This document shows, in pieces, positions 1 through 20,683 of a stretch of 64,000 bases of DNA. The notes beneath the pieces were generated by a model, which was given only the letters and a program-made list of their open reading frames with translations, was not told the origin of the DNA and ran no database searches. The stretch covers positions 30,063 to 94,062 of IMG/VR virus record IMGVR_UViG_3300045988_058617, one strand, 5' to 3'. Position 1 is the first letter of the stretch. Each line of letters starts with the position of its first letter. The position numbers and the translations under genes are program-made. Source of the stretch: a virus.

Positions 1-138
1 GTATACGGTAAGCCAGACTAACTACGACCCTTTATATATAGCTCCAATGTTCTTTTGTACTCTTTGCTAAACTTGTTCTACAAGTTCTAGAATATCTTTT
101 TGGACCTGTAATATTAACTTACCATTTCTATATATCAT
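1..138 (-). CDS. Partial hypothetical late protein, N-terminal part only; runs off the window edge. Contains in-frame TAG codons (amber-recoded).
   Basis: A minus-strand ATG at 138–136 overlaps the upstream stop (ATGA). The frame stays open to position 1 if TAG is read as sense. This is coding-like AT-rich sequence. Confidence 0.3.
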
Positions 139-488
139 AATTTAGCAAAATCTTCCTTGACTTTAGCTTTTATCTATTTTAATATGTTAAGATATTCCTT
201 ATATTCATTAATAACTTCAGAATCAGAAGTAAGATTTTCTGAATAGCTATTATATGAATTGATTAAATCAAATTCTTCATCAACTGTAAGGAATCTTCTA
301 ACTATAGCTTTTACACAATCTTTGTAATTAGGCTGCCCATTTAATAATACCTAGATAAAACTATAGTAAGTTTTTTCTTTTATGGTATTGTCTAAATCAA
401 GTACTTCAACACTAATTTCTTTTATATCATAGTTATAGTAATAAGTACCGTTCCCAAGTTTTTGGATTGTCTAAGGATAAACGTCCAT
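135..488 (-). CDS. Hypothetical protein immediately downstream of the DGR reverse transcriptase (about 117 aa). It has three in-frame TAGs and ends with TGA.
   Basis: Manual minus-strand translation from the ATG at 488–486 gives a continuous ORF to the TGA at 137–135, with TAG as the only internal stop. It has no resemblance to Avd that I can see. Confidence 0.35.
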
Positions 489-1725
489 TTGTATTCTATT
501 CGGCTCTAACATAAGGTGTTATTTTAAAATTTATAGGAAATTTGTATCTAAGCAAAGAATAGTGTAATCTCCTATTCTTACTTTTAAAATAGTAGGGTTT
601 ATTGTTATACATGAAATGTACTCGAAAATGATTGTCATAATCAACAACCTCTACAATGTGAATATATTTATTATAAAACTTAGATATGTTAACTTCTTTT
701 CCATTCCAGTTAGAGAATTTCAATCCAGTTAACTCCTCTACCTTTCTCAGCAAGTTCTTAGAGTTGCAAAATTTCATCCATCCAAAATAAGACCTCATTC
801 TTCTATTCAATTCATCTTTATCAATCTTATTCTATTTATATAGATTTATAAGCCTAAACATCCTCATTTTTATAGATTTTCTCAGTAGAACATGAGTATG
901 ATAGAATTTATAGCCTACGAAATCAATACCTCTGCTTTCTACAGGGAATATTCGATAATTAGGCTTCAACTCTAGGTTAAGAACCTGTTTCAAATATAGT
1001 TTTATAGATACTAATACATTTCTCAAATAATTCTTGTCATTACCAAGAATCACAATATCGTCAGCATATCGAAAGTAGTACTTACATTTTAACTCCTCTT
1101 TTACCCAGTGGTCAAAATATGTCAGATATAAATTTGCAAAGAATTGTAATAGATAATTTCCAATAGGAACTCCCTTCGCTGAATAAATTATTTCTTTCAA
1201 CAGTTTTAATAGTTTTTTATCCTTTATCTTTCTCTATAACATTTCGTATAAAATGTCGTGAGTTATAGAAGGATAGAATTTTTTTATATCCATTTTCAAG
1301 CAATACTTTGTTTCTTCTGGATGTTTCTATAACACCTTAAACAAATCATACTCTACTTTATGAATACCTCTATTTCGTATAGAGAAATATGTTTGGTCTA
1401 TAAATATACTAGTCCAAATAGGCTCCATAATATTCATTATAGCATGGTGAGTTATTCTATCTGGATAGTATGGAAGTCTAAAGATTAATCTTTCTTTAGG
1501 TTCGTATATTATAAAGGTACTATATTCAGAGGTTTGATAAATCAAATCCCTTAACTTATCGGATAATTCCTTATTTTCTTTTAATCTATTCTTATCATGC
1601 TGCTTGATTCCACATCTAATAGACTTATTTCTTCTAGCTTTATCGTCAGCTAGTTCGATGTTATCTTCAGCGTATACTTTCTCGTGCAAATATCCTACAC
1701 GTTTCAATTTTTTTATATATTTCAT
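433..1725 (-). CDS. Reverse transcriptase of a diversity-generating retroelement (Brt-like). It has 3 in-frame TAG codons and ends with TAA.
   Basis: Six-frame ORFs 1327–1725, 832–1200 and 496–810 are all in the same frame. They are separated only by TAG codons at 1327–1329, 832–834 and 496–498, and the frame ends at TAA 433–435. Motifs match Bordetella phage Brt: YEPKERLI, the FRYADDIVILG (YxDD) box and SRGIDFVGYKF…LLRKS. A TR/VR pair is adjacent. Confidence 0.85.
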
Positions 1726-1853
1726 CGGAAGCGTTCGAGAATTAACCTACTAACACCCTTCATTCAACACTACGTTATCTTTTGCCTAGAGGCAAGGATA
1801 TTACTTAGCAAACTAAAAAAAAATAATAAAATGTTTCTAAATATATAATAACT

Positions 1854-1948
1854 CGACATTGGAATTGGGCATTGCTGACGTCATTGTTAGAATTGAAATA
1901 GCTGAGACCTGCATTGCTGCCATTATTCGCGTTGCTGCCTACTAGCAG
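1854..1948 (-). repeat. DGR template repeat (TR).
   Basis: A 95-nt segment homologous to 2056–2149 and 29275–29368. TR is the AT-rich copy, and every substitution relative to both VRs falls at a TR adenine (minus-strand sense). It lies between the target gene stop and the RT start. Confidence 0.8.
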
Positions 1949-2026
1949 TACTTTTTTGCCAATCAACGGTTTTTAGAAGTAATATCCTACGATTTATCAT
2001 CTAAATCGATTTTTATATTGTATATC

Positions 2027-3400
2027 TTAAGATACTCTATTCAGAGTCCTGAACCCGACATTGGAACCGGCATTGCCGACGCCATTGCCAGAACCGAAAA
2101 AGCCGAGACCTGCATTGCTGCCATAATGCGCGCTGCCGCCCACCAGCAGCGTGCGAAGCGCTGTGCTGCTTGCGTTGCAGTAATGGTAATCGCAAATATA
2201 AGTAGTAGCACTTCCTCCAACAGCGGATGGAATTATTTCAGCGGTTTCACCTAAGTCAAATGCCTTAATATAACCATCAGATGCTACTTCGTATCCTGCA
2301 ACGGTTTTCTCTCCAACTACGTCGGTAAATTCCGATACGTTAGTAGTTGTATAGACATTGCTAATCTCATTAGCAGCTGCCCTCACTATAACTACTCCGT
2401 CCAGGTTAGTCCAAATGTCTCCAAACGGATTATCGAACCCTCTCCAGCGAGGTACCTTAAATGTATGAGTTGCTACTGTACTTGTGCCATCTTGAGCTGT
2501 ACATTCTGGAATAACTAAATCTTTTACTCCAGTGAAGTTACCAAATTCATTGCAGTAACCACAAGGCGTAAGTGGAGATGTTGCATTATATCCTGACCAA
2601 CTTGTAGCTGCGTTAGCCCAATCTGTAACTCCAGGTCCTAAACCTCCTTGATGATATCCATCCGCAGTTAACTCTGCATTATATGCAGCCTAAGAATTAA
2701 AATTAGCATATTCAATGACATAATTCCAGTAGAATATCCATTTGTAATATTCATAGCATAGCAATTCTGAACCAGCATTTGTTGCATATGTTCTCATAGT
2801 AGCTCTAGAAATATTAGTTCTAGGCTTTCCTAAATCACTTCTGAATATATCCTTAGTTTCTAATTCTGTAGTTAGATAATCATCGTAGTTAGCTCTATTT
2901 CCTCCACCTCTAAATGCAGTAGTAGTATTAACTACTGATACAGCTTTTGGAGTTGCGGAGACTGTGGTATCAACTGTACTTCTGTATGCATCTATTAATA
3001 GTTCAGGAATTTCTACCCATGAATCATCAATTTTGACAGTAGAAGTTCTAACCCATCTTTTGTTTCCATCGCTGCCAGATTTTCCATAAAATTTAGGAGT
3101 ATTAACTCTTACTGTTCCATCAGTTCCATCTAAGACAGATGGAGTTTCGCCGTCTTCTTTATAAGACCAGTTATCTGGAAACAGATAGTAATTTACTACA
3201 TCATTGTTTGCTACACAACCTCTATACGCTGACTGAATAGGAAGAGATTTATGCAACAAAGGATTACCTATTCTAGTAAGTTCCGGAGATGCTACTGTAA
3301 CATCCCATTCTACTCCATAGGAATATAAATCCATATTACTATTTAGCTCAGTAACCTACTTATCAAGCTTTTGTTGTGCCTTCTACAATTCTTCCCAAGC
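2027..3400 (-). CDS. DGR target protein 1, a putative receptor-binding or tail-fibre protein with a C-terminal C-type-lectin-like variable region. It is recoded (in-frame TAG at 2690, 3356, 3383…); the N-terminal boundary is not resolved.
   Basis: ORFs 2027–2386 and 2690–3334 share a frame across TAG 2690–2692. TAG-to-Gln readthrough gives coiled-coil text (…ELQKAQQKLDKQVTELNSN…). The gene stops at TAA 2027–2029 and VR1 is embedded at its C-terminus. Confidence 0.6.
2056..2149 (-). repeat. DGR variable repeat 1 (VR1), at the 3' end of target gene 1.
   Basis: It is GC-richer than TR, with adenine-specific mismatches relative to TR (AAT/AAC codons in TR become GGT/GGC/CAT/TAT and so on). It is followed by the hairpin ttcag-gact-ctgaa. 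It encodes the segment …GSAHYGSNAGLGFFGSGNGVGNAGSNVG…. Confidence 0.8.
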
Positions 3401-6400
3401 CTCATTTAGTGCTGTAAATTGCTCTTCTAGCTTAGAACTTGAATCTGCCCATTCAGCAGTACCATCTGCTGAGAAAACTAGCATCTATCCAGACTCTCCT
3501 CCAGATGGAATATGTTTATTTCCAGAAGTAGTTGGGTGTACATAATTATTAGCATTATTAGCTATAGTACTTAACTTTTCCTTCTCAGTTTCAGTATAAT
3601 TGGCTTCAGAAAGTCCCTTTCCTAACTCCTTATCTACTTTGCCTTCAAGCTCACCCTTAGTAGCTAATTCACTAATATCCTAATGCTCAGTCAAATATCC
3701 ACTATCATTCTGTAACTAAGAAGTTTTAGTTGGAATTGCATTAGCTTTGGCATATGTCGTATCTATAACATTTCCAGCACCATCGTAAGTAGCTTTTAAA
3801 TCGTATGTGGTTTCCCCAACCTTTATAGATTTGATTGCTGCCATATCATTGTATTATTAAAGTTTCACCAACTACATCGTGATCTATTCCCTCTATGGAA
3901 GCAGTTAGGTCCTCAACAGCCTTCTACAATTCTGCTTTAGTAGCATAGTTCTTGAGAACTTCCTAGTCTACTCCAGAGCCTCCTCCTATACTTCCTCCAA
4001 CAACTTTTACTGGTTTGGCAGAACTCTTAAACTGTCCTTCAATATAAATTGTTCCCATATTGTTTAAAATATTAATTGTTCATTTTCTCCATCTACCTCT
4101 ACACTAGAACCTGGCTATAAAGCGTCTATCTTTTTCTACAATTCGGCTACGGCCTAGCTAATTAGTTCTTCTACCTCAGCTTTGGTGTAGTATCTCTCTA
4201 TAAGATATTCGCTCCTAACATATCCAGTATCTTGTAAATCTTTTTCTCCATAGGTGCAATAATAAGTATCTTCTTCAGTCTTACTATTCTCAACTAGGTC
4301 ATCATAATCAGCTTGTGGTAAGCATACAAGTTTTGGTACTTCTTCAGTAATAGCAACTTGCTTGCCTCCAGCAAATAGCCTGTTATCTTCTGTGGTAAGT
4401 TTAACAGAACTCTCAATAACTTGCTCAGTTCCTGTTTCCTCAGAAGGTTCTCCAGTTGTTCCCTATTGTACTTCTTTTTCTCCAATTTTCTAAATAGTAA
4501 TATCAGAAGTTTCTACTGATGTAGATTTCAAAAGCTCAGTGCTAAATTCTTTAGCAGCAGCAGCCTAATCATCCTGATATTTTTTCTAGGTAACAAATAT
4601 GAAATCATCATCTCCGGTTTCAGGAGAGTCTCCCCTTAAACTTTCTTTTGTTACGTAATCTTCGGCTATCTAATCTGATAAATTAGATAATGACTATTGA
4701 GTAGCATAAGTAGACTGAGCATTTTCCTTAGTAAGAAATTTGTCATCAACCTGCTAAATAGTATAATAAGCCTTAATATCTTCTGTAGTAACGTAGTTTC
4801 CAAGTTTTTGCAAACCTTGAACTATTTCATCAATCTACTTCTTGGAGTAATAATTTGTAGCAACCCAGGACTGATATTGATTAGTAGTATGATAATTCTA
4901 ATCCAAATATTCCTTAGTAATATAAACCTTTGCATCATTTGTAACGTCATATACATAGTAATATGTATCAGGCTCTACCGTCCCTTCCTCTACTAACTTT
5001 AGATACTCTTCTTCAGTTAATGTTACTAAGTTCGGAATATCCGATTCAGTAGCAATCTAATCTTCACCTATAAATAATCCTTCAGACTTAACGTCTACTA
5101 CTAACTAGCCCTCTCCCTCCACTACAGGAGATTTTATCTACCCAACAGTGATGCTTTCTAAGGAGCCATCTCCATCTACCTTAAGAGTTTTATCTAACTC
5201 GTCTTGGATAGCCTACTAATCTTCCTCATATTCTTTCTTTGTAACGAAGACAAAATCATCTCCTTCCATTCCCTCTCCTCTAAGGCTTTCTTTAGTAACG
5301 AAAATATCGTTTGTTTCTTCCTTAGTATAATACTTAGTCAGTGATAGAGCTAAAGAATCGTTAGAGACATAATTAGTAGTTAATTCTTCCAGTGTAGCAT
5401 AATCTGATAGGCTAGCAATAGTGTTATCTAAGTCTGTTCTAATCTATACTACAGTAGTATTAAGAGCCTTCTATTTTAATTGCTCTTCTATCTTTTTCCC
5501 CCATTCCGCGGATAGGTAAAACTAGTTATCGTCTAAGCTATCCTCATATATATAATAATATGTCTCAGCATGAAGATATGGTTTACTTTCATCTATGGGC
5601 CTAAAATCGTCTGTAGTATTCTCAGACCATTCTTTATATTCAGCCTCTGTACAGGTGATTATCTAGATAGATTCATAGGATGCTTTCCATCCTTCCTTGT
5701 ATTTAATCTTAGACTTATCAATCAGCATATAAATATTTCCGTTATCTATGTTAGCAACGGTCATACCTTGATAAGCATACTTCTCTGGAATAGAATAAAG
5801 TTCGTCTAAGTTATTAATGACTGTTCTATTATCGAGAGGCTTCGGAGTTTCTACGGTTAAAGCGACACCTAAGGTAGCATCACCTGTATATTTAAATGCC
5901 ATTATTGTGATAAAGTAAAGTTAATTTGATGAGGCAATGCTGAGGAGTAAGTATCTTTCTTAGTCCATACCTTGTAAGTAAATCCATTTATCTACTCGGT
6001 AGACGTTTCCCAACCACTTAGGTCTACATTTAAATATCCAAGTCCTCCATCTACGGTAAATGAATTTAACTATGTGTTACTTCCTGGCAATTTTATAATA
6101 GCCTTACCACTTAGTGAAAATGTGATAGTTCCAGACGATTGTCCAAAAGGAACTAGCGCCTATTTAATCACACCATCAGTATTACCAGAATACCAAGGAT
6201 ATGTGGCTACTACCTAAGCGGTAGCGGAAATAGAACCAGCTTCTACTCTCTTATCTGTAACTTCTCCTTTATTATTTATCAAATATTCTCCAGCGGCATA
6301 ACTCACTGTACCAGAGTGAGTATAAGTACCAATAGAATTATATGTATCAGACTCTACAGGAGAACTGTTAGAAGTAATAGTTTCTCGTCTGTCAGTTTCT

Positions 6401-9400
6401 TCTCCAGCATCATTCTTTATAAATGTAAGTGTAGGAGTTAATAAAGCAGTTCCCACTTCTACTATTTGAGAAGTAAAACTATAATAAAGCTATGGGTATA
6501 CTAAATCTCTAACTACTGTTGGAAACAGTAAAGTATCAATAATTTCATTAAAGGGCTTGCCCTTAAGTTTCTCTACTGTAGTCCCTTCAATTACTGTTGA
6601 AGTAGTATCATCTGGGAGTTCCGTCTAATAAGTAGCTATAGTTTCTAAGTTAGTTTGTATATTAGTAATACTTTCAGTATTAGCTTCTACTTTAGTATTT
6701 GTCTCTTGTTGTGCTTCCTAAGTTTTCTATACTTCTTTCTTTGTTTCTTCTAGAGCAGGTTCAAGATTCTTAACATAGATACCTGGAAGGATAATAGAAG
6801 AGGTTTCCTCTCCAATCTCCTATTCTATTAAATGAATAGCATTATCTTCCTAAGTAGATAAAATCACCTCTAAGGAATTATTTTCCTTTAGTTCTATAGT
6901 TTTGGAATTTTGGAGACTATTCTTAATCCAATTAAGAATGTTTTTATCAACATCTATATTCTCAATAGCATTGTTCAACTCAACTATAGCTTCATTGATT
7001 TTTACTATTTCTTCAGATAGATTATTAATTCCTTTTCTATTAATATCAATTTCTCGCTGTAAATCCTCCTTCAATACAGATATAGAAGTTCTAATATTGC
7101 TTATATCGACTTTCAGTTCTTCTATTGCTTCTGTATTAGATTCATATTCGCTAATAAAGTATAGGGCATAGTCTAGGGCATCCTTCACAGTATTAATGCC
7201 TTCTGCAACGTCACTAGTATAGGTCCATTTTTGTTCTATATACTATACTAGGTCTTTTTGCAGTTCTATGGTTCCACTAATGTTTCCCCACAATAGACTC
7301 TACTCATCAGCAATACCTAAGTTCTTTCTTACTTTAGCTTTTTCTAGTTCTGTCCTATATTCTCCTAAATAGTTATTTCTTAAGAGAGGTATAGGCTCAC
7401 ATTTTATAGGCTTACCCTTTTTACCACAAGGCACTATATCTGCGTTACTTACCGAAGTGTAAATAGACTGTATCATTCTAGTTTAATAATTGCTATTTAA
7501 TAAATTCGTGATTATCTAGTCTTACAGGTAGGTTAATAAAACAAATTAGATTAAGAATATCTTGATAATCTGGTTTATATCCCTTTTTGAGTTTTCTTAG
7601 AAAATCCTCATACCTTTTAATAGCCTTTCTCTTAAGAGCATCCACAACCTATACGTTTATGTCCATGGTGGTGATTGTCACAGAATCCTCCACAGGTACG
7701 GAACATCGCTAGTAATCTTTCAGCCTCCATGAATTGTTTAAAGCATATTAAATAATCTATAATGTTAAGAGTCATCCATATGAAATCTCGAGCAAATATA
7801 AGTGCTTCCTAATCTCTAGTTAGACACTTATTTAGTAAAGCATCAAAGAGTTTCTTACAATAATTAATGTAACACTACTACAAGTTTCCTGTAAAGAAAA
7901 CATCTACCTTACATTTTTTTATAGTAGTTCCTTCTATGTTTCGTTCAAGAACTTCTTTAACTGTACACTCTTCTAGCTTACCTTCTACTTCTTTATATAA
8001 TTTTTCTCCATCAGTAACATAGATAGTCTCATAGTATTCCTTGTATTCGTCCGATGAATTTTCATACCATTTCATATTAGGAATAATGATATGGTCTACT
8101 ACGTAATAACCATCATCCTTGACCTTAAACATACACGAGTCTAAGTCTTCTGTATGGTCATTAAGTAGGACATCTATCAGAGTAGCATCGCTTATACTAA
8201 CTTTGATGATAGTATTCAAGGTAGCACTCTCACTATACTTATAGGAGTCGTAAGAAGTTACTACCTCTACATCTTCATCAATATACTAGCCATATTCTTT
8301 TGAGAAATCTTCTATCAGTATTTCCCCATTAATTTGGGTATGTATATCAATACTAAATTCCATATTGCAATAATATTAAGTGTTAGGCCATTGACCGTAT
8401 TGAGCTGGTGTAGAAAAAGGTCCCCACTTTCCAGATTGCTTTATACGTCTAGACATAAAAACAGAAGTAAAAGATAAACTAATATCTTGTGGATAGTCAG
8501 TCCAGGTATAAGACTATCCATCTGGAGTAGGAGGTAATTTATCAATCCCAGAGGAGGGCTGTCCATTCCAGTAGTAGTTATAGTCATAGGCTTTAATAGA
8601 GGTTACTTCTGTGGTTTCTCTCCCGTCAGAATCTATATAGAGAGGATCTCCTTTTTCATTCGTTTTTTGTTTATACTCTATAACTGGTGTTATTCCCTCG
8701 GTTCTAGTATATATAGTCTATATAATAGTAGAGACATCACTCGCTACTATTTCATAGATAGTAGTTCCCTATGATTCATCAGCTCCCTAAAAAGTAAATT
8801 TAGTTCTTTTCCATATATATGGATTCTCTTCTGTTGGAAGCTCAAAAGTATCAGACCACTACTTACTTGATAGTTTTATTTCAGATTCATTGGCAGTATT
8901 AGCAGGGAGATAATGTATTTTAATAATAATACTATTAACTGCTTCACTTGAACCGGATAAATCTGATACCTACTTAAATAATTTTTTTAAGTCGTCTTCT
9001 ACATTTGATTTAGAACCGGAAGCATTACTTATAATTACTGTCCCATCAGAGATAGGATAAATCTACTACTAATCTTTGTTGTATACAATTGTTCCAGTTG
9101 CCATATTAATGTATTTGTCTTATTTTGTCATTATATGGATTTCCATCATGAAGCTAAGCCAACTCTATTTCAGTTCTTTTTTCTTCAATATCCATTTGTC
9201 TATCTTTATAAGTAGAATCAGACTGAGCTTTAAGCCAGTTAACTTTATATTCTAACTGCATCTTCTACTATTCTAATCCCAGTCTCTATTCATCTAAGCT
9301 TTCAATCTTTTGCTGAGCTTTCTATAATTCTTGCTATAACTACTGAGCCTATTGAGAAGTTTCTTCTAATTTTTCTTGTAGTTGCTGAAGCTGATTATTT

Positions 9401-11218
9401 TCCTCTTTGCGAACTTGAACAGCTTTCTTAACCTTATATTTAAGGTCTGTCAGACTCTTAGATGTAAGAGCCTCAAAAATAATATCTGGATCCATCTGTT
9501 GACTTTTTACGAACTCTGGAATGATTGCTTTTATAGTCTATAAATCTTCCATCACTTCTGAACTAGCAGTAATATGAATATCGTAGTCAGTAACAGTAAA
9601 ATACTCAGGAAGTGCGGTGAATATCTGTTGATATTTATCCCCAAGTATAATAGTTCCAGTTAATCCTTTCTTATAAGTAACTTTAGCCTAATTAAGACTA
9701 TCTAGTAGTATCTCGCAGGTTATTAAATCCATCTGCTAAAAATAGTGCTTAGTTACTATATACGAGTTAGCTACTCCCTACTTAATATTAGTAACTGCAT
9801 CTCTAGTTTCTATACCGTTAAGTCGTTCCCTAAATACTCCAGTTATTGATGATGTAGTTTGTTCTACTGATTGAATAGCTAGTTCAATAGCCTATACAGC
9901 CTATGCTTTTAAGGTATCATCAAATCCGTTATATATCTAGTTTGGAGCTTGCTGTCCGTCATTCCTACCTTCTTGGCTTGAGTCTATCCACATGATACCA
10001 CCTTTTTTATAAGCTAACCATTTTTGTACTCGTTCTGGCCATTTAACTCCTAAGTTGGTAGGCAACAGAGACATATCCATAATAACTCCAGCAGTACCAC
10101 TATTAGCTATTAGATTATCTCTATAATAGTTTAATAAGTCGTATCTATCCTACAGATGTGCACATTTTAATATAAGAGAATAAGGCTACTAAGAGCGATT
10201 TAAGAAATATACTCCATTTACCGATAAAGAACAGAAGTTGGGATTATCTTTAGACCTCATAACAGTCTTGTCTAATCCTCTAAGAATATATATCTCTTCT
10301 CCTATTCTGATAGTATTGTATCTCTACATCACAAAATCATCATCTGTTTCAATCCATTCAACATCATAGACTGGGATTAACTAGAACCTATGAGCACTAT
10401 ATTCATTGTCTGGATAGCCGGGAATGGTTTCATGATTCTAATCTTCATTTACTACTGTACAAGTATCTCCATATACTCTTCTATAAACAGCAGCTGAATC
10501 ATCAGCTCGCCATTCATCTTTTAGTCTTCTTAAATCTTCTCTAGATATTTCTTTGCCATATTTAGCTAAAATCTAACTCTTACTCATCCACTTTCTTACT
10601 ACAACTCTATATGAGTTCCTTACATATGGAGATTCTGGATTTCTATCAACAAATGTATTAAGTGGGTTTAATACCTCTATTTCAATATTAGTTCCAGAAG
10701 CCGATGATTTCACTCTAAAGAATGTATAACCAGTAATTAATAAGTCTGTTAGTAACTAACGTAACTTAGTAATTAAATCGGTTTCTCTGGATTGCATAAT
10801 ATAATGTACTATATTCTAAGCTGCAATTTCATATTGAGAAATAAAGGATTGGTCAATATCCTATATAATTTTATCTAACTAAGTCTTTACAGCTTTATCA
10901 GTAATATCCTTGCCATCAATAAACTTAAGAATTGAATTACTTAAATGGTCTTTCAAAAACTTTACTATTCCCTTGGTTATTTCTAGCTATTTTTCTCTTG
11001 TTATATTACTGATAGTATCTGAATCTTTGCAAGAAATTTTCGGAAGTATAGGAGTTCCTAAATATTCTCCAACTAGAGCATCTACGTGTTTCTTTAATAA
11101 AGGCGTAAACTCTACCGAAGTGGGGCTACCTATTCCGAAGTTTTCTTCCAGATAACGGAACTATTCAGGATCTCTTTTACCATTATAATAATTATAAGCT
11201 TTCTGTAACTCATACTTA
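3400..11218 (-). other. Block of TAG-recoded late/structural genes on the minus strand (tail/fibre-like and coiled-coil-rich proteins). Individual gene boundaries are not resolved.
   Basis: Six-frame ORFs here are short (4294–4485, 5663–5902, 6214–6456, 6850–7188, 7878–8219). Each terminates at a TAG (cta on the + strand), never TAA or TGA. The sequence between them has coding-like codon periodicity. Confidence 0.5.
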
Positions 11219-11680
11219 TCATATACAAGTTCCGCAATAGCCTCGTTTGTCTTGTCTATTAATTCCTTCTCTTTCATAACATAAATTATGTTGTTCTGGA
11301 GGAAGTTTAGTAGCGTTATAATACTTAACTCTTTGCAACTTCCTACTTCTTAATTCTTCCTTAATAAATGGCAGAAATTCTTCGTCTGGTAAATCTGCTA
11401 TTATTACTAATGGCATTTCTGACCTATCAAAGTTAAAAGAGACTTTATACCCAACTGGGTCTAAACTCTCAATATCTAGTCCGCCTATATACTCCATTTT
11501 GTACAAGTCCCTCATATATTCTAGGATCACTTGTTTCAACTCTGTATGGGTCATCATATTCGTTTCTTTGCATATTAAGTTCAGGAGTTTTCTTAGTTGG
11601 AATAACTCCAAATCTTTTAATTCCTCTCTCGTCGTAATAGTAACCAAAATCTTGGAACTATTCAACTTCTTTCTCCACAA
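11219..11680 (-). CDS. Hypothetical protein ending in TGA; it overlaps the 3' end of terL in another frame. The real start is probably an internal ATG.
   Basis: ORF track, 153 aa. The terminal TGA at 11219–11221 was verified. Confidence 0.45.
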   Translation of the reverse strand: MWRKKLNSSKILVTITTREELKDLELFQLRKLLNLICKETNMMTHTELKQVILEYMRDLYKMEYIGGLDIESLDPVGYKVSFNFDRSEMPLVIIADLPDEEFLPFIKEELRSRKLQRVKYYNATKLPPEQHNLCYEREGINRQDKRGYCGTCI

Positions 11681-13832
11681 GTACGGGCTGTCTTCCTGAT
11701 AGCTCTTGGTCTGCTAACTCAGTCATACCTACAGCGGCTACAATATCATACTTACCCTTATTTTCATCATTATATGCAGTGAACTATTCTAGCATTTCTT
11801 CGAACCATATAGTATGGCAATAGTCTTCTATAAAGGCGGCTGTTAAATCAGTATGCTATTCGATTATAGTTTTTGTAGCAGGAGTTCCATACTATTTAGT
11901 AGTTCCATTTCTAACGTCAGTTAGAGTAGCTCTTGGGCGCTTCATAAAATAGTTAAGGCATCCTTTTTCTCTAGCCCAAGTAACCATACCCATACGAGTA
12001 GCTTCTATATTTATTTTACAATTATAATAGCGAGCTAAACACATAGCTATTTTATAGGCTTCTCTGATGTCTCCAGGTCTATCCTTGTACATAGCAACAT
12101 ACTGAGGGTCATTCATACCAAACGCACGTTTCTTAATCGTTATGCAGAAATCAGACGGGTCTCTGGTTTCCTTAGAAGTCTAATTCGCTCCAATATCAAT
12201 ACCGTCTATACCTGCTACATATAAGTCTCGCATCTCTTTATAAACTGGAACTTCAAAATCCTAGCCATTATCTTCTGCCTCCTATCTAAGCTTTTCCATT
12301 TGTTCTTTATATAAGTCAGACCATATTGGATGCTCTAGAATTTTTACTTTGCCATTCCTGTTAGGAATCCATTTAAAACCATCAATATTATCCTAAGTAT
12401 GTTTATTATTTTTGTAAAAATAATCAATATAACCACATTCGGGTCTTGGGCCAATTTGTTTAAGTCTTATATTAGCTATCTATTCGGCAACTAAAATTTT
12501 ATTAAACTTATTAACACCTTCTAGATTAAATGCTTCTTCTGCATTCCAACAACGTTCAGCGCATTTCTTTAGGTAGTCTTCTGGTACAGCTAACAGATTA
12601 TCTCGCTCCTCCTATAAGAATTTCTTATATTCCACAGTATTACATACTCCTCTGTGGTCCATAAATTCTGGATTCAAAGATTGTATAAAGTATGGAATAA
12701 AGAATCCACTCTCTATAGTAGTCCCATCCTAAGTCCAATTATGTCTAAATGGAAGAATCTTATATGCTCTTGGATTATAGTAAATCTTTTTTAAGCCCTC
12801 TAGAGGAGCACCCATATCACCGCCAGTACCTCCAAACAACATTGTTCCACGAGGCATACCTTGAACTTCACAAAGTTCTTGACCTTGTACCACAGCGGTA
12901 TCAAGTCCAGGCCAGGAACCAGCTTCATCATATATTAATAAATCTACACGGTCTCCACGAATGTTAGATGGTTTAGCTCCGTTAATTGCTACAACCTCAG
13001 ATTTAAATCCTACGTCTTCAAACTAACCATTTATTTTGATTTGTTTACCTGATTTCTTTCTCAAATCCTGGTCAATAAGTCGCAATTTAAAAAATCCTCC
13101 TCCAGTACAGGTATTTAAGAATGTAAGAGCATTGTCAAACTTACTAAAGGTACCCTTAAGGAAGGTATCATTAAAGCAAGTAATCATAACCCTACTTCTT
13201 CTAATAATAGAGTACATACGAGCAGAAAGAGAGGCGTTTATTTCAGAGAATCCAATAGAACGAGCTTTCATTAAAGCTGCGTGCTTGTGTAGCACCCTAG
13301 CCATCTATAGATAATGAAAGAACGTATAATGTGATGCAAAGAATATTGGGAAGTCATTATCAGTACCCTCACCAGAGGCTTTCTACTAGTCAATAGTAGG
13401 TAACTAATAGAAATTTAAGAAGAAGTAATTATCTCCAGTAATGGTGTATCCATTAACTGTCATTCCATACTTACATCTTCTATATTGCTCTTTCCAAAAT
13501 TCGTTGTACCGCTTACTATCTCTAAGGTAGGGACAGTATTGACCAGTTCGTTTATATACTTCCCTAGTCTCGGTAAACCAATCTGGATTAAAGTCCAATC
13601 CATGAGTTTCGTCAATAGGTCTGTATCCAGTTATTTCATAAGATAAGGTAGGGTCAAATACTTCTATTTTATCTCCTATTTTAACATCCCAATAGTCAGA
13701 ATTTCTGACCCTTTCCTCTCTTATTTTCTATACTAATTCTCTAGCTTCTTTAGCATCCTCTTTCTATTCTTTTTCTCTTACCTAATCTACAATATTCTAT
13801 ATTTCTTCAGGTAATATCTTTTTTCTTGGCAT
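11616..13832 (-). CDS. terL: Terminase large subunit, about 738 aa, with many in-frame TAG codons (amber-recoded).
   Basis: Frame-0 ORFs 11892–12116, 13023–13304 and 13404–13598 are joined only by TAGs. Manual translation gives MPRKKILPEEI(Q)NIVD… from ATG 13832–13830, and a Walker-B/catalytic motif …RVDLLIYDEAGSWPGLD… near 12930. The frame terminates at TAA 11616–11618. Confidence 0.8.
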
Positions 13833-14432
13833 AATTAAAAGTCTCCTGGGTCAAAACCATCCACAGCTCCAGCTCTAACAGTAGATTGTTCAGTAAGTTC
13901 TTTCTTAACCTAGTCTTCTAGTGTTATGAGTTCTTCATGAACTTTGTGAAGGGTAGCCATTTCCTTCATTACTTTTTCAGCCTGGAATACTGGCTTGCCG
14001 TTATTATCACGCTCATTTAAATCTACAATAGTTTCGAAATAATCAATAAACTAGTCTGCAGCTCTTTTAGCTGCTTCCAGTAATTTTATTGACTTGTTTG
14101 AATCTTGTAACGCTCTGTACTTCCTACAGGCTTCTCTAAATATAGGGTCGTTAAATTCCGACTCTGTCAATCCAGAATCACTAATAGCTTCGTCATGTCG
14201 TTCATGTTCCGAATACTAACTGTACGGACTTTTCCAGTCTATAGCTAAATAAATGTAAGATAGTTCTCTAGTAGCTCTATCCTTTTCTGCAGATTTATCC
14301 CTCTAGATTAAAGCCTTAAATTCCTTAACTAGCAATATCTCTGGTTCATTTATTTCTAGCTATTTAGTTAAAGTGTTATAGTTAAATACATTCATAATCA
14401 TTAATCATTATCATACACATTAGATAATCTTA

Positions 14433-14567
14433 TTATTTCTTTTTCATTTTGGAACCGCACTTATTGACTTTCATTTTTGAGCCACAAGCGTCTTTCTTAG
14501 CATATTGTTTTCTGTCAGGAACCCATTTTCCTCCCTGGAAATTACCCTTATGTCCTTTATTGGCCAT
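14433..14567 (-). CDS. Small, very basic protein (about 44 aa, MANKGHKGNFQGGKWVPDRKQYAKKDACGSKMKVNKCGSKMKKK).
   Basis: Manual translation, below the ORF-track size cut-off. Its function is unknown. Confidence 0.3.
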   Translation of the reverse strand: MANKGHKGNFQGGKWVPDRKQYAKKDACGSKMKVNKCGSKMKKK

Positions 14568-14648
14568 AGTTTCCTAATCATTGTATTTATTGATTGATAT
14601 AGAATCTCTTGAGGCTTCGTCTCTAGCAGATTTCATATCTTTCTTATA

Positions 14649-15914
14649 CTAAGCTCTTCCTGCCTTAAATTTATCAACTTCATTAGCTTTCTTAGTAACT
14701 TTAGTTCCTTTTTGTGCTTTCTGGCAAGCTTTACAGATTCTACCGCCTTGCTTAAAATATACAAGCTCTTCTCCTTCTGGACATACTCCTTTTAGCTTCT
14801 TATAATACTCAAGCTTAGCTCCAAGCCTAGCCATTACTCCTCCTTGCATTTTCTGCATAAATTCCTGATACTTAGCTTTAATGCCGTCTTCACCTAATTG
14901 TTCAGCATAAGCTTGTAAATCCTGTTCAGACTATATCTGAACTCCCTATGACTGCGCATCCTATATTAAATATGCCACAAACGCTTTTTGTAATTCTTGT
15001 TGATTATTCATTGTTCCTCCTTGTTGAAATTTAGTTGTAGGTCCCGGAGATAATGTTAATGGTTCAGCTTCTGATTTTCTAGAATTCCATACATCTCCAA
15101 GATAATTAAATAATCTCAACCTCCTATGTATCCCAAAATCTCCTCCTTGTACTGTATTTCCCATAGTATATCTACTAGTGGCCTGTACAGGATTTACTTT
15201 AGGCTTACTTGAAGGCTACTCGGCTCTTGTCTATTCACTAGCTGGCTAACGGCCTCCTGTAATAGTTGGTATTCCTCTACCCCAAGTAGTTCCTTTTGTT
15301 GTAGCAATTAGGTCTGGAGATTCTATACTAATCTAAGTACCTAACTAAGGAATCTGAATGGCAGAAGGTTGTTTAGGCTTACTTGAAGGCTACTCGGCTC
15401 TTGTCTATTCACTAGCTGGCTAACGGCCTCCTGTAATAGTTGGTATTCCTCTACCCCAAGTAGTTCCTTTTGTTGTAGCAATTAGGTCTGGAGATTCTAT
15501 ACTAATCTAAGTACCTAACTAAGGAATCTGAATGGCAGAAGGTTGTTTAGGCTTACTTGAAGGCTGTCCTAAGTCTGTAGTATATACAGAATTTCCCCAC
15601 ATAAACTGTTTTAGTCCTCTCTCTCTAGCAGCCCTAAAAGCTGTCTTAAAATCTTTAACACCTCTTAAATCATCCTAAGCTATTTCAGCAGTAGGAAGAG
15701 GTTCTAATCTTGTGGGTAATGAAGGCATTTCTGGAGCATCAAAATATGTCTCTTGTAACTTAGGCATTTTCTATTGTGCGGTTCTTCTAATAATGTCTGG
15801 ATTAGTTGCCCAAGTCTAATGCAACTACCTCAAGGTTCTCTCATCTAAGTCCGCATCTCCGTAAATAATTTTGATATTACGCATCAATTCAGGGTCAAAC
15901 TACACTTTAGCCAT
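14649..15914 (-). CDS. Late protein (recoded) containing a tandemly duplicated 58-aa P/T/Q/S-rich segment. The 3' boundary is uncertain.
   Basis: ATG at 15914–15912 (MAKV(Q)FDPELMRNIK…). The frame-0 ORFs 14961–15164 and 14649–14858 continue the same frame across TAGs. The gene carries the 174-bp repeat. Confidence 0.45.
15201..15566. repeat. Perfect 174-bp tandem direct repeat: 2 full copies plus an 18-bp third copy, in-frame within a late gene.
   Basis: Units 15201–15374 and 15375–15548 are identical. 15549–15566 restarts the unit and then diverges. 174 nt is 58 codons. Confidence 0.85.
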
Positions 15915-20594: not shown

Positions 20595-20611
20595 AACTAT
20601 TAATTTTGGCG

Positions 20612-20683
20612 TTGCCCTACTAGGATTCGAACCCAGACTAAATGATTTAGAGTCATCTGTGCTGACCATTACACCATAGGGCA
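20612..20683 (-). tRNA. Amber-suppressor tRNA, anticodon CUA (reads UAG), with a Gln-tRNA-like scaffold.
   Basis: Manual fold: acceptor TGCCCTA/TAGGGCA, D arm GTGT-AATGGTCA-GCAC, anticodon stem GATGA/TCATT, loop CTCTAAA (U33, CUA, A37), T arm CTGGG-TTCGAAT-CCTAG. Its overall architecture is almost identical to tRNA-Gln(UUG) at 33540. Confidence 0.8.

What the first reader, a model, noticed from the sequence alone, without database searches (positions are those of the whole stretch)
433..2170. Diversity-generating retroelement: Brt-like RT, template repeat, and adjacent variable repeat in a putative receptor-binding protein
Two roughly 95-nt repeats (1854–1948 and 2056–2149) differ at more than 15 positions. 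Every difference is at an adenine of the AT-rich copy (coding/minus sense), which changes to G, T or C in the GC-rich copy. This is the signature of DGR mutagenic retrohoming.
- The GC-rich copy (VR1) is the C-terminal region of a long late protein: …GSAHYGSNAGLGFFGSGNGVGNAGSNVG…, AAY-codon rich, consistent with a C-type-lectin VR.
- VR1 is followed by a small hairpin.
- The AT-rich copy (TR) lies between that gene's TAA stop and a Brt-like RT. The RT has YxDD = FRYADDIVIL, YEPKERLI and SRGIDFVGYKF…LLRKS.
- No Avd-like gene is evident between target and TR. An uncharacterised ORF (135–488) follows the RT.
- The RT itself carries TAG codons, so it is a late-expressed, recoded gene.
Basis: partly seen in the sequence, partly recalled or inferred. 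Interest (0 to 1): 0.85.

Follow-up and report, generated by a model that had tools for sequence, protein, structure and literature searches.

The report
Two-target phage diversity-generating retroelement
This is a genuine diversity-generating retroelement in a large, stop-codon-recoded crAss-like gut phage; it rewrites the tips of two phage proteins, and it belongs to a group of such elements described in 2025, so it is a well-supported but largely expected find.

Summary
TR (1850-1948, minus) and VR1 (2052-2149) differ by 17 substitutions, all at TR adenines (p about 2e-11).

The RT is closest to Bordetella bRT (E 2e-43). In 32 related phage contigs the TR is nearly invariant, while VR1 varies only at TR-adenine positions, in 11 hypervariable codons.

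- A second target. VR2 (29280-29370, plus strand) lies in a 186-aa protein about 27 kb away and is equally hypervariable in 38 relatives.
- A structured RNA between TR and RT (1711-1799). It is a divergent Rfam RT-17 member with covariation support.

Other results:
- TAG encodes Gln, and the RT has four TAG codons.
- No Avd was found.
- This copy looks damaged. The TR's extra C would frameshift both targets, and the RT carries S193L (in the GxxxSQ motif) and Q258R at sites invariant in 120 homologues.

DGRs with amber-recoded, Avd-less RTs were described in Zeta crAss-like phages in 2025. Verdict: a new member of a known kind, with a non-adjacent second target that paper does not mention.

The parts
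2027..3844 (-). Target gene 1: 605-aa tail-fibre-type protein (6 in-frame TAG = Gln) carrying VR1 at its C-terminus
   Evidence: ORF with TAG read through. phrog_5302 'tail protein', E 4e-85. Among 120 homologues at >=90% identity, variation is concentrated in 11 codons between 571 and 595.
2052..2149 (-). VR1, variable repeat; hypervariable core 2061-2137
   Evidence: 17 of 17 substitutions against the TR lie at TR adenines. Across 30 genomes all four bases occur at the TR-A columns, and the other columns are nearly fixed.
2034..2053 (-). Two overlapping small hairpins just after the VR1 homology: TTCAG-GACT-CTGAA (2053-2040) and ACTCT-GAAT-AGAGT (2047-2034)
   Evidence: The first has a compensatory TTTAG/CTAAA form in 5 loci but is broken in about 10. 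The second has an invariant stem. VR2 has no equivalent hairpin, so their significance is doubtful.
1850..1948 (-). TR, template repeat (non-coding, 30 adenines). This copy has one extra C (plus-strand GGG at 1867-1869)
   Evidence: All 32 related TRs lack the extra base, and most of them are otherwise identical or differ by 1-2 bases.
1711..1799 (-). Structured RNA in the TR-RT spacer (divergent Rfam RT-17 member); P1 hairpin CCUUGCC-UCUA-GGCAAAA at 1797-1780
   Evidence: Rfam RF03020 scores 28.7 bits, E about 1e-3, over the full model length. Relatives L073, L068 and L067 pass the gathering score at the same position. 8 of 12 pairs covary; 0 of 500 shuffles reach the observed values.
433..1725 (-). 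DGR reverse transcriptase. Likely start is TTG at 1707 (424 aa); the ATG at 1725 is in frame only in this copy and L001. Four TAG = Gln codons. Residues 336-430 form a C-terminal extension absent from bRT
   Evidence: PF00078, E 5.6e-17. phrog_1423, E 6.6e-108. bRT 8ub7, E 2.2e-43. Start codon and TAG positions. The extension is conserved in about 116 of 120 homologues.
135..512 (-). Conserved 125-aa acidic ORF (pI 4.8) overlapping the RT's 3' end; role uncertain (accessory protein or fibre-associated neighbour gene)
   Evidence: phrog_11557. It lies directly after the RT in 66 of 80 loci. It is also present in IAS virus after a truncated target-like ORF, with no TR or RT. pI.
28930..29490 (+). 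Target gene 2: 186-aa protein without TAG codons, set among the tRNA genes, carrying VR2
   Evidence: phrog_11581. Homologous to the small cassette-adjacent DGR targets of a related RT clade (31% identity, E 3e-9).
29280..29370 (+). VR2, second variable repeat, on the opposite strand about 27 kb from the TR; hypervariable core 29290-29363
   Evidence: A pattern with the TR's non-A positions fixed matches only TR, VR1 and VR2 in the window, with 0 matches expected. 23 of 23 core mismatches lie at TR adenines. It is hypervariable at the TR-A columns in 38 relatives and in 11 codons of 120 proteins.
20611..20683 (-). Phage suppressor tRNA (anticodon CTA), needed to translate the RT and target 1
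   Evidence: ARAGORN. Its D-arm and T-arm resemble the phage's tRNA-Gln. TAG alternates with CAA at invariant Gln positions of the RT among relatives.

Best explanation
The locus is a diversity-generating retroelement of an approximately 185-190 kb, TAG-recoded crAss-like gut phage. Its layout is target 1 - TR - structured spacer RNA - RT, with no Avd gene and a second, non-adjacent target.

Proposed mechanism:
1. An RNA containing the TR and the RT-17-like spacer is made from the minus strand.
2. The RT can only be made in full once the phage's own suppressor tRNA reads its four UAG codons as glutamine.
3. The RT recognises the spacer RNA and copies the TR into cDNA, misincorporating opposite adenines.
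4. The cDNA replaces the homologous stretch in two genes: the C-terminus of a tail-fibre-type protein (VR1) and a 186-aa protein about 27 kb away on the other strand (VR2).
5. Eleven codons in each protein are randomised. Ten are AAY codons in the TR. The TR allows about 1e16 protein variants.

Shown: the anatomy, adenine specificity, the RT's kinship to bRT, the invariant TR and hypervariable VR1 and VR2 across a natural population, TAG = Gln, and covariation in the spacer RNA.

Inferred: the priming role of the spacer, restriction of RT production to late infection by TAG, independence from Avd, and receptor binding by the targets.

The copy in this window may be crippled. Its TR has a +1 insertion that would frameshift both targets, and its RT has S193L and Q258R at positions invariant in 120 homologues.
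For: - Adenine-only mismatches: 17 of 17 for VR1 (p 2e-11) and 23 of 23 in the VR2 core.
- RT kinship: the best solved relative is bRT 8ub7, E 2.2e-43, against about 1e-13 for group II RTs.
- TR conservation: the TR is identical or nearly so in 32 related contigs. VR1 shows all four bases at the TR-A columns and is otherwise conserved.
- Local concentration of change: against the nearest relative L002, 19 of 22 substitutions in 2.2 kb fall within the 100-nt VR1.
- Protein entropy peaks at 11 codons in target 1 and at 11 codons in target 2.
- VR2 was found by a pattern that fixes the TR's non-A bases: 3 hits, 0 expected. It is variable in 38 relatives.
- Related contigs on which both loci were found carry three pattern matches: VR1 and TR side by side, and VR2 elsewhere.
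- Spacer RNA: sub-threshold RT-17 hit in the window, above threshold in relatives, with covariation.
- TAG = Gln, and a CTA suppressor tRNA is present.
- The TAG-rich minus-strand block includes the portal and terminase genes.
- Literature: DGRs with amber codons in the RT and without Avd are reported in Zeta crAss-like phages (PMC12386605). The RT-10 RNA lies between TR and RT in BPP-1 (PMC5737381).
Against: - No experiment or read-level data were available, so activity is inferred from differences between genomes.
- In this copy the TR's extra C and RT S193L and Q258R argue against current function.
- The [I/V/L]GxxxSQ signature reads IGNYLLQ here.
- No GC-rich IMH comparable to BPP-1's exists. 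Only GTCGGG (both VRs) against GTCGAG (TR) separates recipient from donor.
- The C-type lectin fold of the targets was not confirmed.
- The hairpin after VR1 is weak and VR2 has none.
- The spacer RNA scores below Rfam's gathering score in the window itself.
Confidence: 0.93

Rival explanations
1. The cassette in this particular genome is a recently inactivated relic. The family's DGR is active, but this copy can no longer diversify productively, because any cDNA copied from its TR carries a +1 insertion and its RT is damaged at two invariant residues.
For: - The extra C in the TR is unique among 33 TRs and lies inside the transferred, hypervariable range.
- Neither VR1 nor VR2 carries it.
- All three nucleotide differences from L001 in the RT are non-synonymous. 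Two hit positions conserved in 120 of 120 homologues: S193 of the SQ motif and Q258.
- RT decay occurs elsewhere in the clade: L037 and L039 are frameshifted and L028 has a stop. The contig with a broken RT also has a VR2 with non-A changes.
Against: - The RT ORF is intact.
- In BPP-1, Q187P in the same motif did not abolish adenine mutagenesis (PMC7826257), so S193L may be tolerated.
- S193L and S114F are each shared with one other contig.
- A single-base homopolymer difference could be an assembly or sequencing error.
- Both VRs are unique and in frame, so the damage, if real, is very recent.
Confidence: 0.3
2. The two repeats are an ordinary duplication, or a recombination product, that diverged under biased mutation or selection, with the RT gene lying nearby by coincidence.
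For: 14 of the 17 changes in VR1 are A>G, which taken alone could suggest a transition bias.
Against: - Across relatives the same columns show all four bases.
- Non-A columns are conserved.
- The TR stays fixed while both VRs change.
- The same TR-VR-RT arrangement, with A-only mismatches, recurs in about 60 loci with RT identity down to about 50%.
Confidence: 0.01
3. The RT belongs to another retroelement (group II intron, retron or defence-associated RT), and the structured RNA is its msr/msd-like or intron RNA.
For: Rfam's RT-1 to RT-19 motifs were first proposed as possible retron RNAs (PMC5737381). Retron and group II RTs do give weak hits, E 1e-13 to 1e-15.
Against: - The bRT hit is 30 orders of magnitude better.
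- No intron RNA domains or maturase/endonuclease domains were found.
- The RNA lies exactly between a TR and the RT, as RT-10 does in BPP-1.
Confidence: 0.01

Closest known systems
[quoted passage not shown]
   Same: - Genome size of relatives is about 183-193 kb.
- More than 20 tRNA genes and a CTA suppressor tRNA.
- Amber codons inside the RT gene.
- A long RT (414 aa reported there) with a variable C-terminus.
- Order tail-fibre target - VR - TR - RT, with no Avd.
   Different: - That paper describes one target per cassette for this group. It does not mention a non-adjacent second target or a spacer RNA.
- Membership in the Zeta group was not tested here by marker-gene phylogeny.
- No nucleotide match was found in the phage collection searched.
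- This copy has LQ instead of SQ in the RT motif.
Bordetella phage BPP-1 DGR (mtd-avd-TR-brt)
   Same: - Adenine-specific TR-to-VR information transfer.
- An RT homologous to bRT (E 2e-43, residues 49-335).
- The VR lies at the C-terminus of a tail-fibre receptor-binding protein.
- A structured RNA lies between TR and RT (RT-10 in BPP-1, RT-17-like here).
   Different: - There is no avd gene.
- The RT carries about 95 extra C-terminal residues (pI 9.9).
- There is no 14-bp GC-rich IMH and no strong hairpin after the VR.
- There are two targets, one of them 27 kb away on the other strand.
- The RT is translated through four recoded stop codons.
Avd-less DGRs: Architecture A and Lineage 3 of Wu et al. 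2018 (PMC5758913)
   Same: - A TR-RT core without avd, HRDC or MSL genes.
- Lineage 3A is reported only in Bacteroides and relatives.
- Some of these DGRs have a small acidic flanking protein (CH1, pI 4.7). This is reminiscent of ORF 135-512 (pI 4.8).
   Different: - CH1 proteins are 160-169 aa, whereas this ORF is 125 aa. No CH1 sequence was available for comparison.
- The ORF also occurs in IAS virus without an RT, which points to a fibre-associated neighbour gene instead.
Phage DGRs with two or non-adjacent targets (Wu et al. 2018; nd4/nd12 phages, PMC10743442)
   Same: One TR serves two VRs in different proteins. In phage-associated DGRs, non-adjacent targets lie within about 50 kb of the RT.
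   Different: The second target here is a small (186-aa) single-domain protein of phrog_11581, not a tentaclin (C-lectin plus Ig domains). It lies in the TAG-free tRNA region rather than in the structural module.
Rfam RT-17 RNA (RF03020; Weinberg et al. 2017)
   Same: - The match covers the full model length.
- The layout is the same: P1 hairpin, then a stem enclosing UAGUAG and CGAA.
- The position is the same, immediately upstream of an RT gene.
- Relatives pass the curated threshold.
   Different: - The window scores 28.7 bits against a threshold of 40.4.
- The Weinberg paper assigned no function to the family. Here it is placed between a TR and a DGR RT.

Membership tests
Diversity-generating retroelement | Reverse transcriptase of the DGR clade (closer to bRT than to retron or group II RTs) | tested here: met
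   PDB search: bRT 8ub7 at E 2.2e-43 over residues 49-335. The next best hits are a retron-type RT at 9e-15 and a group II RT at 9e-14. Also PF00078 and phrog_1423.
Diversity-generating retroelement | Signature RT motif [I/V/L]GxxxSQ | tested here: inconclusive
   The window reads IGNYLLQ: I, G and Q are present but S is replaced by L (nt 1148). All 120 homologues, and every close relative but one, read IGNYLSQ. In many of them the Q is encoded by TAG. Motif definition from PMC7826257.
Diversity-generating retroelement | TR/VR pair whose differences are confined to TR adenines | tested here: met
   VR1: 17 of 17. VR2 core: 23 of 23. p about 2e-11 and about 1e-16. One extra base in the TR is the only exception.
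Diversity-generating retroelement | TR conserved while the VR varies among related genomes, at TR-A positions only | tested here: met
   33 TRs and 30 VR1s. 39 VR2s. Protein entropy profiles.
Diversity-generating retroelement | The VR encodes the ligand-binding part of a C-type-lectin-fold (or Ig-fold) variable protein | tested here: inconclusive
   - No Pfam or PDB sequence match.
- AF2 of the full-length target failed (pLDDT 32).
- The C-terminal 219 aa gave pLDDT 61.
- Foldseek found nothing.
- The literature reports C-lectin models for targets of this phage group (PMC12386605).
Diversity-generating retroelement | IMH at the 3' end of the VR, with a diverged IMH* in the TR | tested here: inconclusive
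   Both VRs end in TGTCGGG and the TR in TGTCGAG. That G is fixed in 30 of 30 VR1s and 39 of 39 VR2s, and the sequences diverge after 2-3 more bases. There is no long GC-rich element as in BPP-1.
Diversity-generating retroelement | Avd accessory protein | tested here: not met
   - There is no ORF between VR1 and TR or between TR and RT.
- Neither the neighbouring ORF nor 10 of the 12 basic 90-170-aa ORFs in the window match Avd/PF05635.
- Avd is not obligatory: 29% of curated DGRs have no accessory gene (PMC5758913), and most Zeta crAss-like DGRs lack Avd (PMC12386605).
Diversity-generating retroelement | Mutagenic retrohoming actually occurring (cDNA, within-sample VR heterogeneity) | not testable with these tools
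   No reads or experiments were available; only differences between assembled genomes.
Rfam RT-17 RNA (RF03020) | Score at or above the curated gathering score | tested here: not met
   The window scores 28.7 bits against 40.4. L073 (57.7), L068 (44.4) and L067 (43.7) pass at the homologous position.
Rfam RT-17 RNA (RF03020) | Conserved secondary structure supported by covariation, located next to an RT gene | tested here: met
   In 22 distinct spacers, 95% of cells are paired, 8 of 12 pairs change on both sides, 0 of 500 shuffles reach the observed values, and the slid-partner controls pair in 36-57% of cells.
Zeta crAss-like phages | Genome of about 155-190 kb, many tRNAs, suppressor tRNA and stop-codon recoding, crAss-like marker genes | tested here: inconclusive
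   - Related contigs are 183-193 kb.
- The window holds 23 tRNAs, including a CTA suppressor.
- About half of the Gln codons in the late block are TAG.
- Portal and terminase PHROG hits.
- The best RT matches among named phages are Crassvirales at 55-57% identity.
- No marker-gene phylogeny was done, and there was no nucleotide match in the phage collection.
CH1 accessory protein of Avd-less DGRs (Wu et al. 2018) | Small acidic protein conserved beside the RT in DGRs that lack avd, HRDC and MSL | not testable with these tools
   ORF 135-512 is 125 aa with pI 4.78 and follows the RT in 66 of 80 loci. No CH1 sequence was available to compare. Its presence in IAS virus without an RT argues against a role tied to the RT.

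The most novel reading that the evidence does not exclude
This clade may run an Avd-independent form of mutagenic retrohoming. In that reading the RT's conserved basic C-terminal extension (residues 336-430, pI 9.9) together with the RT-17 spacer RNA takes over Avd's role. RT production would be gated to late infection by four UAG codons that only the phage's suppressor tRNA can read. One TR would then co-diversify a virion fibre and a small, TAG-free protein encoded in the tRNA region, which might act outside the tail, for example as a second adhesin or an intracellular binder.
Probability: 0.2. Interest if true: 0.6.

Novelty: new member of a known kind. Interest (0 to 1): 0.35.

Why it matters
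The finding confirms that raw-sequence reading can spot a DGR whose RT standard gene callers would split into fragments at its TAG codons.

For DGR biology the value is modest but real.
- It gives a very large natural sample of one TR driving two different proteins: thousands of target-1 variants and hundreds of target-2 variants in public metagenomes.
- It links an orphan Rfam motif (RT-17) to the TR-RT spacer of an Avd-less DGR clade.
- It offers a defined system for asking how retrohoming works without Avd, and whether stop-codon recoding times the mutagenesis.
- The damaged TR in this copy is a natural example of how a DGR can poison its own targets and be lost.

Tried and rejected
- Megablast of window 1-12000 against 50,697 phage records found nothing, so no annotated close relative could be used.
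- AF2 of the full-length target with 37 near-identical sequences failed (pLDDT 32).
- Sequence and profile searches of the target C-terminus against PDB and Pfam found nothing.
- A profile search of the RT C-terminal extension against PDB found nothing.
- I tested whether the RT extension is a fused copy of the small ORF that follows the short RTs of L069 and L073. hhalign probability was 2.6%, so this was rejected.
- I first took the roughly 590-nt VR-TR spacing in L067, L069 and L073 as room for an avd gene. It holds a second small target instead.
- I considered ORF 135-512 as an Avd substitute. It is acidic, has no Avd signal, and occurs in IAS virus without an RT. It is not rejected as an accessory protein, but it is not supported.
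- The hairpin after VR1 was considered as a BPP-1-like target-recognition element. Conservation is too weak and VR2 has none.
Full report
**Observation**

All genes in the region lie on the minus strand. A local alignment of the two copies gives TR 1948..1850 and VR1 2149..2052. There are 17 substitutions, every one at a TR adenine: 14 A>G, 2 A>T and 1 A>C. With 30 adenines in 99 TR positions the hypergeometric probability is 2e-11. The repeat finder reports the same pair, and VR1 is the GC-rich copy (0.61 against 0.45).

**Genes and genetic code**

Standard ORF calling fragments every gene here. Reading TAG as sense gives:
- a 605-aa target, 2027-3844, with 6 TAG;
- a 430-aa RT, 433-1725, with TAG at codons 133, 164, 298 and 410;
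- a 125-aa ORF, 135-512.

TAG means glutamine. In relatives, the invariant Gln of the RT motif GNYLSQ and of NYQIFPV is encoded by TAG in some genomes and by CAA in others. The window encodes a tRNA with anticodon CTA (20611-20683) whose D-arm and T-arm resemble the phage's tRNA-Gln.

In the minus-strand block 135-15914, about half of all Gln codons are TAG. That block contains the portal and large terminase genes. The long plus-strand ORFs have no TAG. The RT therefore sits in the recoded morphogenesis module. That it is expressed late is an inference.

Most relatives lack the upstream in-frame ATG, so the real RT start is probably TTG at 1707. The window and L001 have one extra A in a poly-A run.

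**The RT**

- PF00078, E 5.6e-17, and phrog_1423, E 6.6e-108.
- The best solved relative is the Bordetella DGR enzyme bRT (8ub7), E 2.2e-43 over residues 49-335. A retron-type RT scores about 9e-15 and group II intron RTs about 1e-13.
- Beyond the end of bRT the protein continues for about 95 residues (pI 9.9). This extension is conserved in about 116 of 120 homologues and has no PDB match.

**Evidence from relatives**

A scan of IMG/VR returned 80 loci with this RT, many on 183-193 kb contigs.
- In 32 close relatives the TR is identical or nearly so.
- VR1 differs in every genome. Variation lies at the TR-adenine columns between 2137 and 2061, where all four bases occur.
- Against the nearest relative (L002), 19 of 22 substitutions in 2.2 kb fall in VR1.
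- Among 120 target proteins at >=90% identity, entropy is concentrated in 11 codons: 571, 573, 574, 577, 582, 584, 586, 587, 591, 593 and 595.
- A TR-VR pair with mismatches almost entirely at TR adenines (a few loci have several non-A changes) lies upstream of the RT in about 60 loci, with RT identity down to about 50%.

The TR contains ten AAY codons and allows about 1e16 protein variants.

**A second target**

A pattern that fixes the TR's non-adenine bases matches three places in the 64-kb window, with none expected by chance: TR, VR1 and 29301-29355 on the plus strand.
- The full VR2 homology is 29280-29370, inside a 186-aa ORF (28930-29490) that lies among the tRNA genes and has no TAG.
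- In the core, 23 of 23 mismatches are at TR adenines.
- In 38 related contigs VR2 is hypervariable at the same columns.
- In 120 proteins the same 11 codon positions vary.
- Related contigs on which both loci were recovered carry three pattern matches: two adjacent and one remote.
- The protein belongs to phrog_11581. It is homologous to the small cassette-adjacent targets of a related short-RT clade. It shares only the VR stretch with target 1.

With only three Gln codons, the absence of TAG is weak evidence on its own (p about 0.12). Early expression is suggested mainly by where the gene lies.

**A structured RNA between TR and RT**

- Rfam gives a full-length but sub-threshold match to RT-17 (RF03020) at 1711-1799: 28.7 bits, E about 1e-3.
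- Three relatives pass the curated threshold at the same position.
- An alignment of 22 distinct spacers supports a P1 hairpin (CCUUGCC-UCUA-GGCAAAA, 1797-1780) and a second stem enclosing the conserved UAGUAG and CGAA.
- 8 of 12 pairs change on both sides, 95% of cells are paired, no shuffle out of 500 reaches the observed values, and the slid-partner controls are low.

Weinberg et al. 2017 found RT-10 between TR and RT in BPP-1 and guessed that other RT motifs serve other DGRs (PMC5737381). This locus fits that guess. A priming role is an inference.

**Accessory genes**

- No ORF lies between VR1 and TR or between TR and RT.
- No Avd signal appears in the neighbouring ORF or in the 10 basic small ORFs scanned (of 12 in the window).
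- This agrees with the literature. 29% of curated DGRs have no accessory gene and Lineage 3 lacks avd (PMC5758913). Only two Zeta crAss-like phages have Avd (PMC12386605).
- ORF 135-512 (pI 4.8) follows the RT in 66 of 80 loci, which recalls the acidic CH1 proteins of Avd-less DGRs.
- It also occurs in IAS virus after a truncated target-like ORF with no TR or RT. It may simply be a fibre-associated gene.

**Peculiarities of this copy**

- The TR's extra C is unique among 33 TRs and lies inside the transferred range. Any cDNA made from it would frameshift the last 13 codons of target 1 and the last 45 or so of target 2.
- The RT differs from L001 at three nucleotides, all non-synonymous: S114F, S193L (the S of the [I/V/L]GxxxSQ signature) and Q258R. 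S193 and Q258 are invariant in 120 homologues.
- Either this cassette has just begun to decay, as some relatives clearly have, or these are assembly errors. Reads would decide.

**Target-site signals**

- Both VRs end in TGTCGGG and the TR in TGTCGAG. The G is fixed in all VRs.
- There is no long GC-rich IMH.
- The small hairpins after VR1 are weakly conserved and VR2 has none.

**Fold of the targets**

**Comparison and novelty**

DGRs in crAss-like phages have been known since 2020 (PMC7290462). The 2025 paper on Zeta crAss-like phages describes 176-189 kb genomes with a CTA suppressor, amber codons in seven RT genes, RTs up to 414 aa, tail-fibre targets and, mostly, no Avd (PMC12386605). Non-adjacent targets within 50 kb are known for phage DGRs (PMC5758913).

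The locus is therefore a new member of a known kind. The additions made here are the second small target, the RT-17 link and the damaged TR.

Noticed in passing
window 23597-23666 (+): ARAGORN calls a 70-nt tRNA with anticodon TTA, which would read the ochre stop codon TAA. The anticodon sits at the unusual position 32. The genes examined here (both targets, the RT and ORF 135-512) end in TAA or TGA, so it may be a false call or an unused suppressor.
   Followed up: no
window 20600-44720: 23 tRNA genes lie in this stretch, nearly all on the plus strand, interspersed with small TAG-free ORFs. Target gene 2 sits inside this tRNA region.
   Followed up: partly
L004:5750-5870 and L038:5748-5867: Two relatives have chimeric TRs. 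The 5' part of L004's TR and the 3' part of L038's TR carry VR-type bases at adenine positions. This could be VR-to-TR gene conversion or an assembly chimera between the two repeats.
   Followed up: no
window 2145 (VR1, codon CTG/CGG): A T/G polymorphism (18 against 12 genomes; Leu or Arg) at a position where the TR has T. It recurs in three subclades and lies at the 5' edge of the repeat. Adenine mutagenesis does not explain it.
   Followed up: partly
window 496-498 (RT codon 410) and 433-512: The RT's last TAG is followed by 20 more codons that overlap the start of ORF 135-512 in another frame. One relative has AAG at that codon, and the tail ending in LLL is conserved in about 50 homologues. 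Two RT lengths (409 aa and 430 aa from the ATG) may therefore be made, depending on suppression.
   Followed up: partly
L037, L039, L028 (RT genes); L117, L120 (VR2): Some relatives have frameshifted or truncated RT genes. The contig with a broken RT (L039 and L117 are the same contig) also has a VR2 with non-adenine changes, consistent with decay after loss of the RT.
   Followed up: partly
L081 (IAS virus NC_049978) 4500-5380: IAS virus has an unannotated short ORF, in an N-rich stretch, that resembles the start and the VR region of target 1. A homologue of ORF 135-512 follows it, with no TR or RT between them. This may be the ancestral or a post-DGR arrangement.
   Followed up: partly
L069:6920-7300, L073:2678-2992: In the related short-RT clade (RT about 330 aa) a conserved 104-aa ORF directly follows and overlaps the RT. 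It is not detectably related to the window RT's C-terminal extension. It is a candidate accessory gene of that clade.
   Followed up: partly
window 4064-5902 (-): The 612-aa protein upstream of target 1 has 21 TAG codons and internal repeats (for example the motifs ESLRG..DDF.FVT.KEY..DQ and TYYY.Y). It is probably another fibre component. The repeat finder family D2 reflects these repeats.
   Followed up: no
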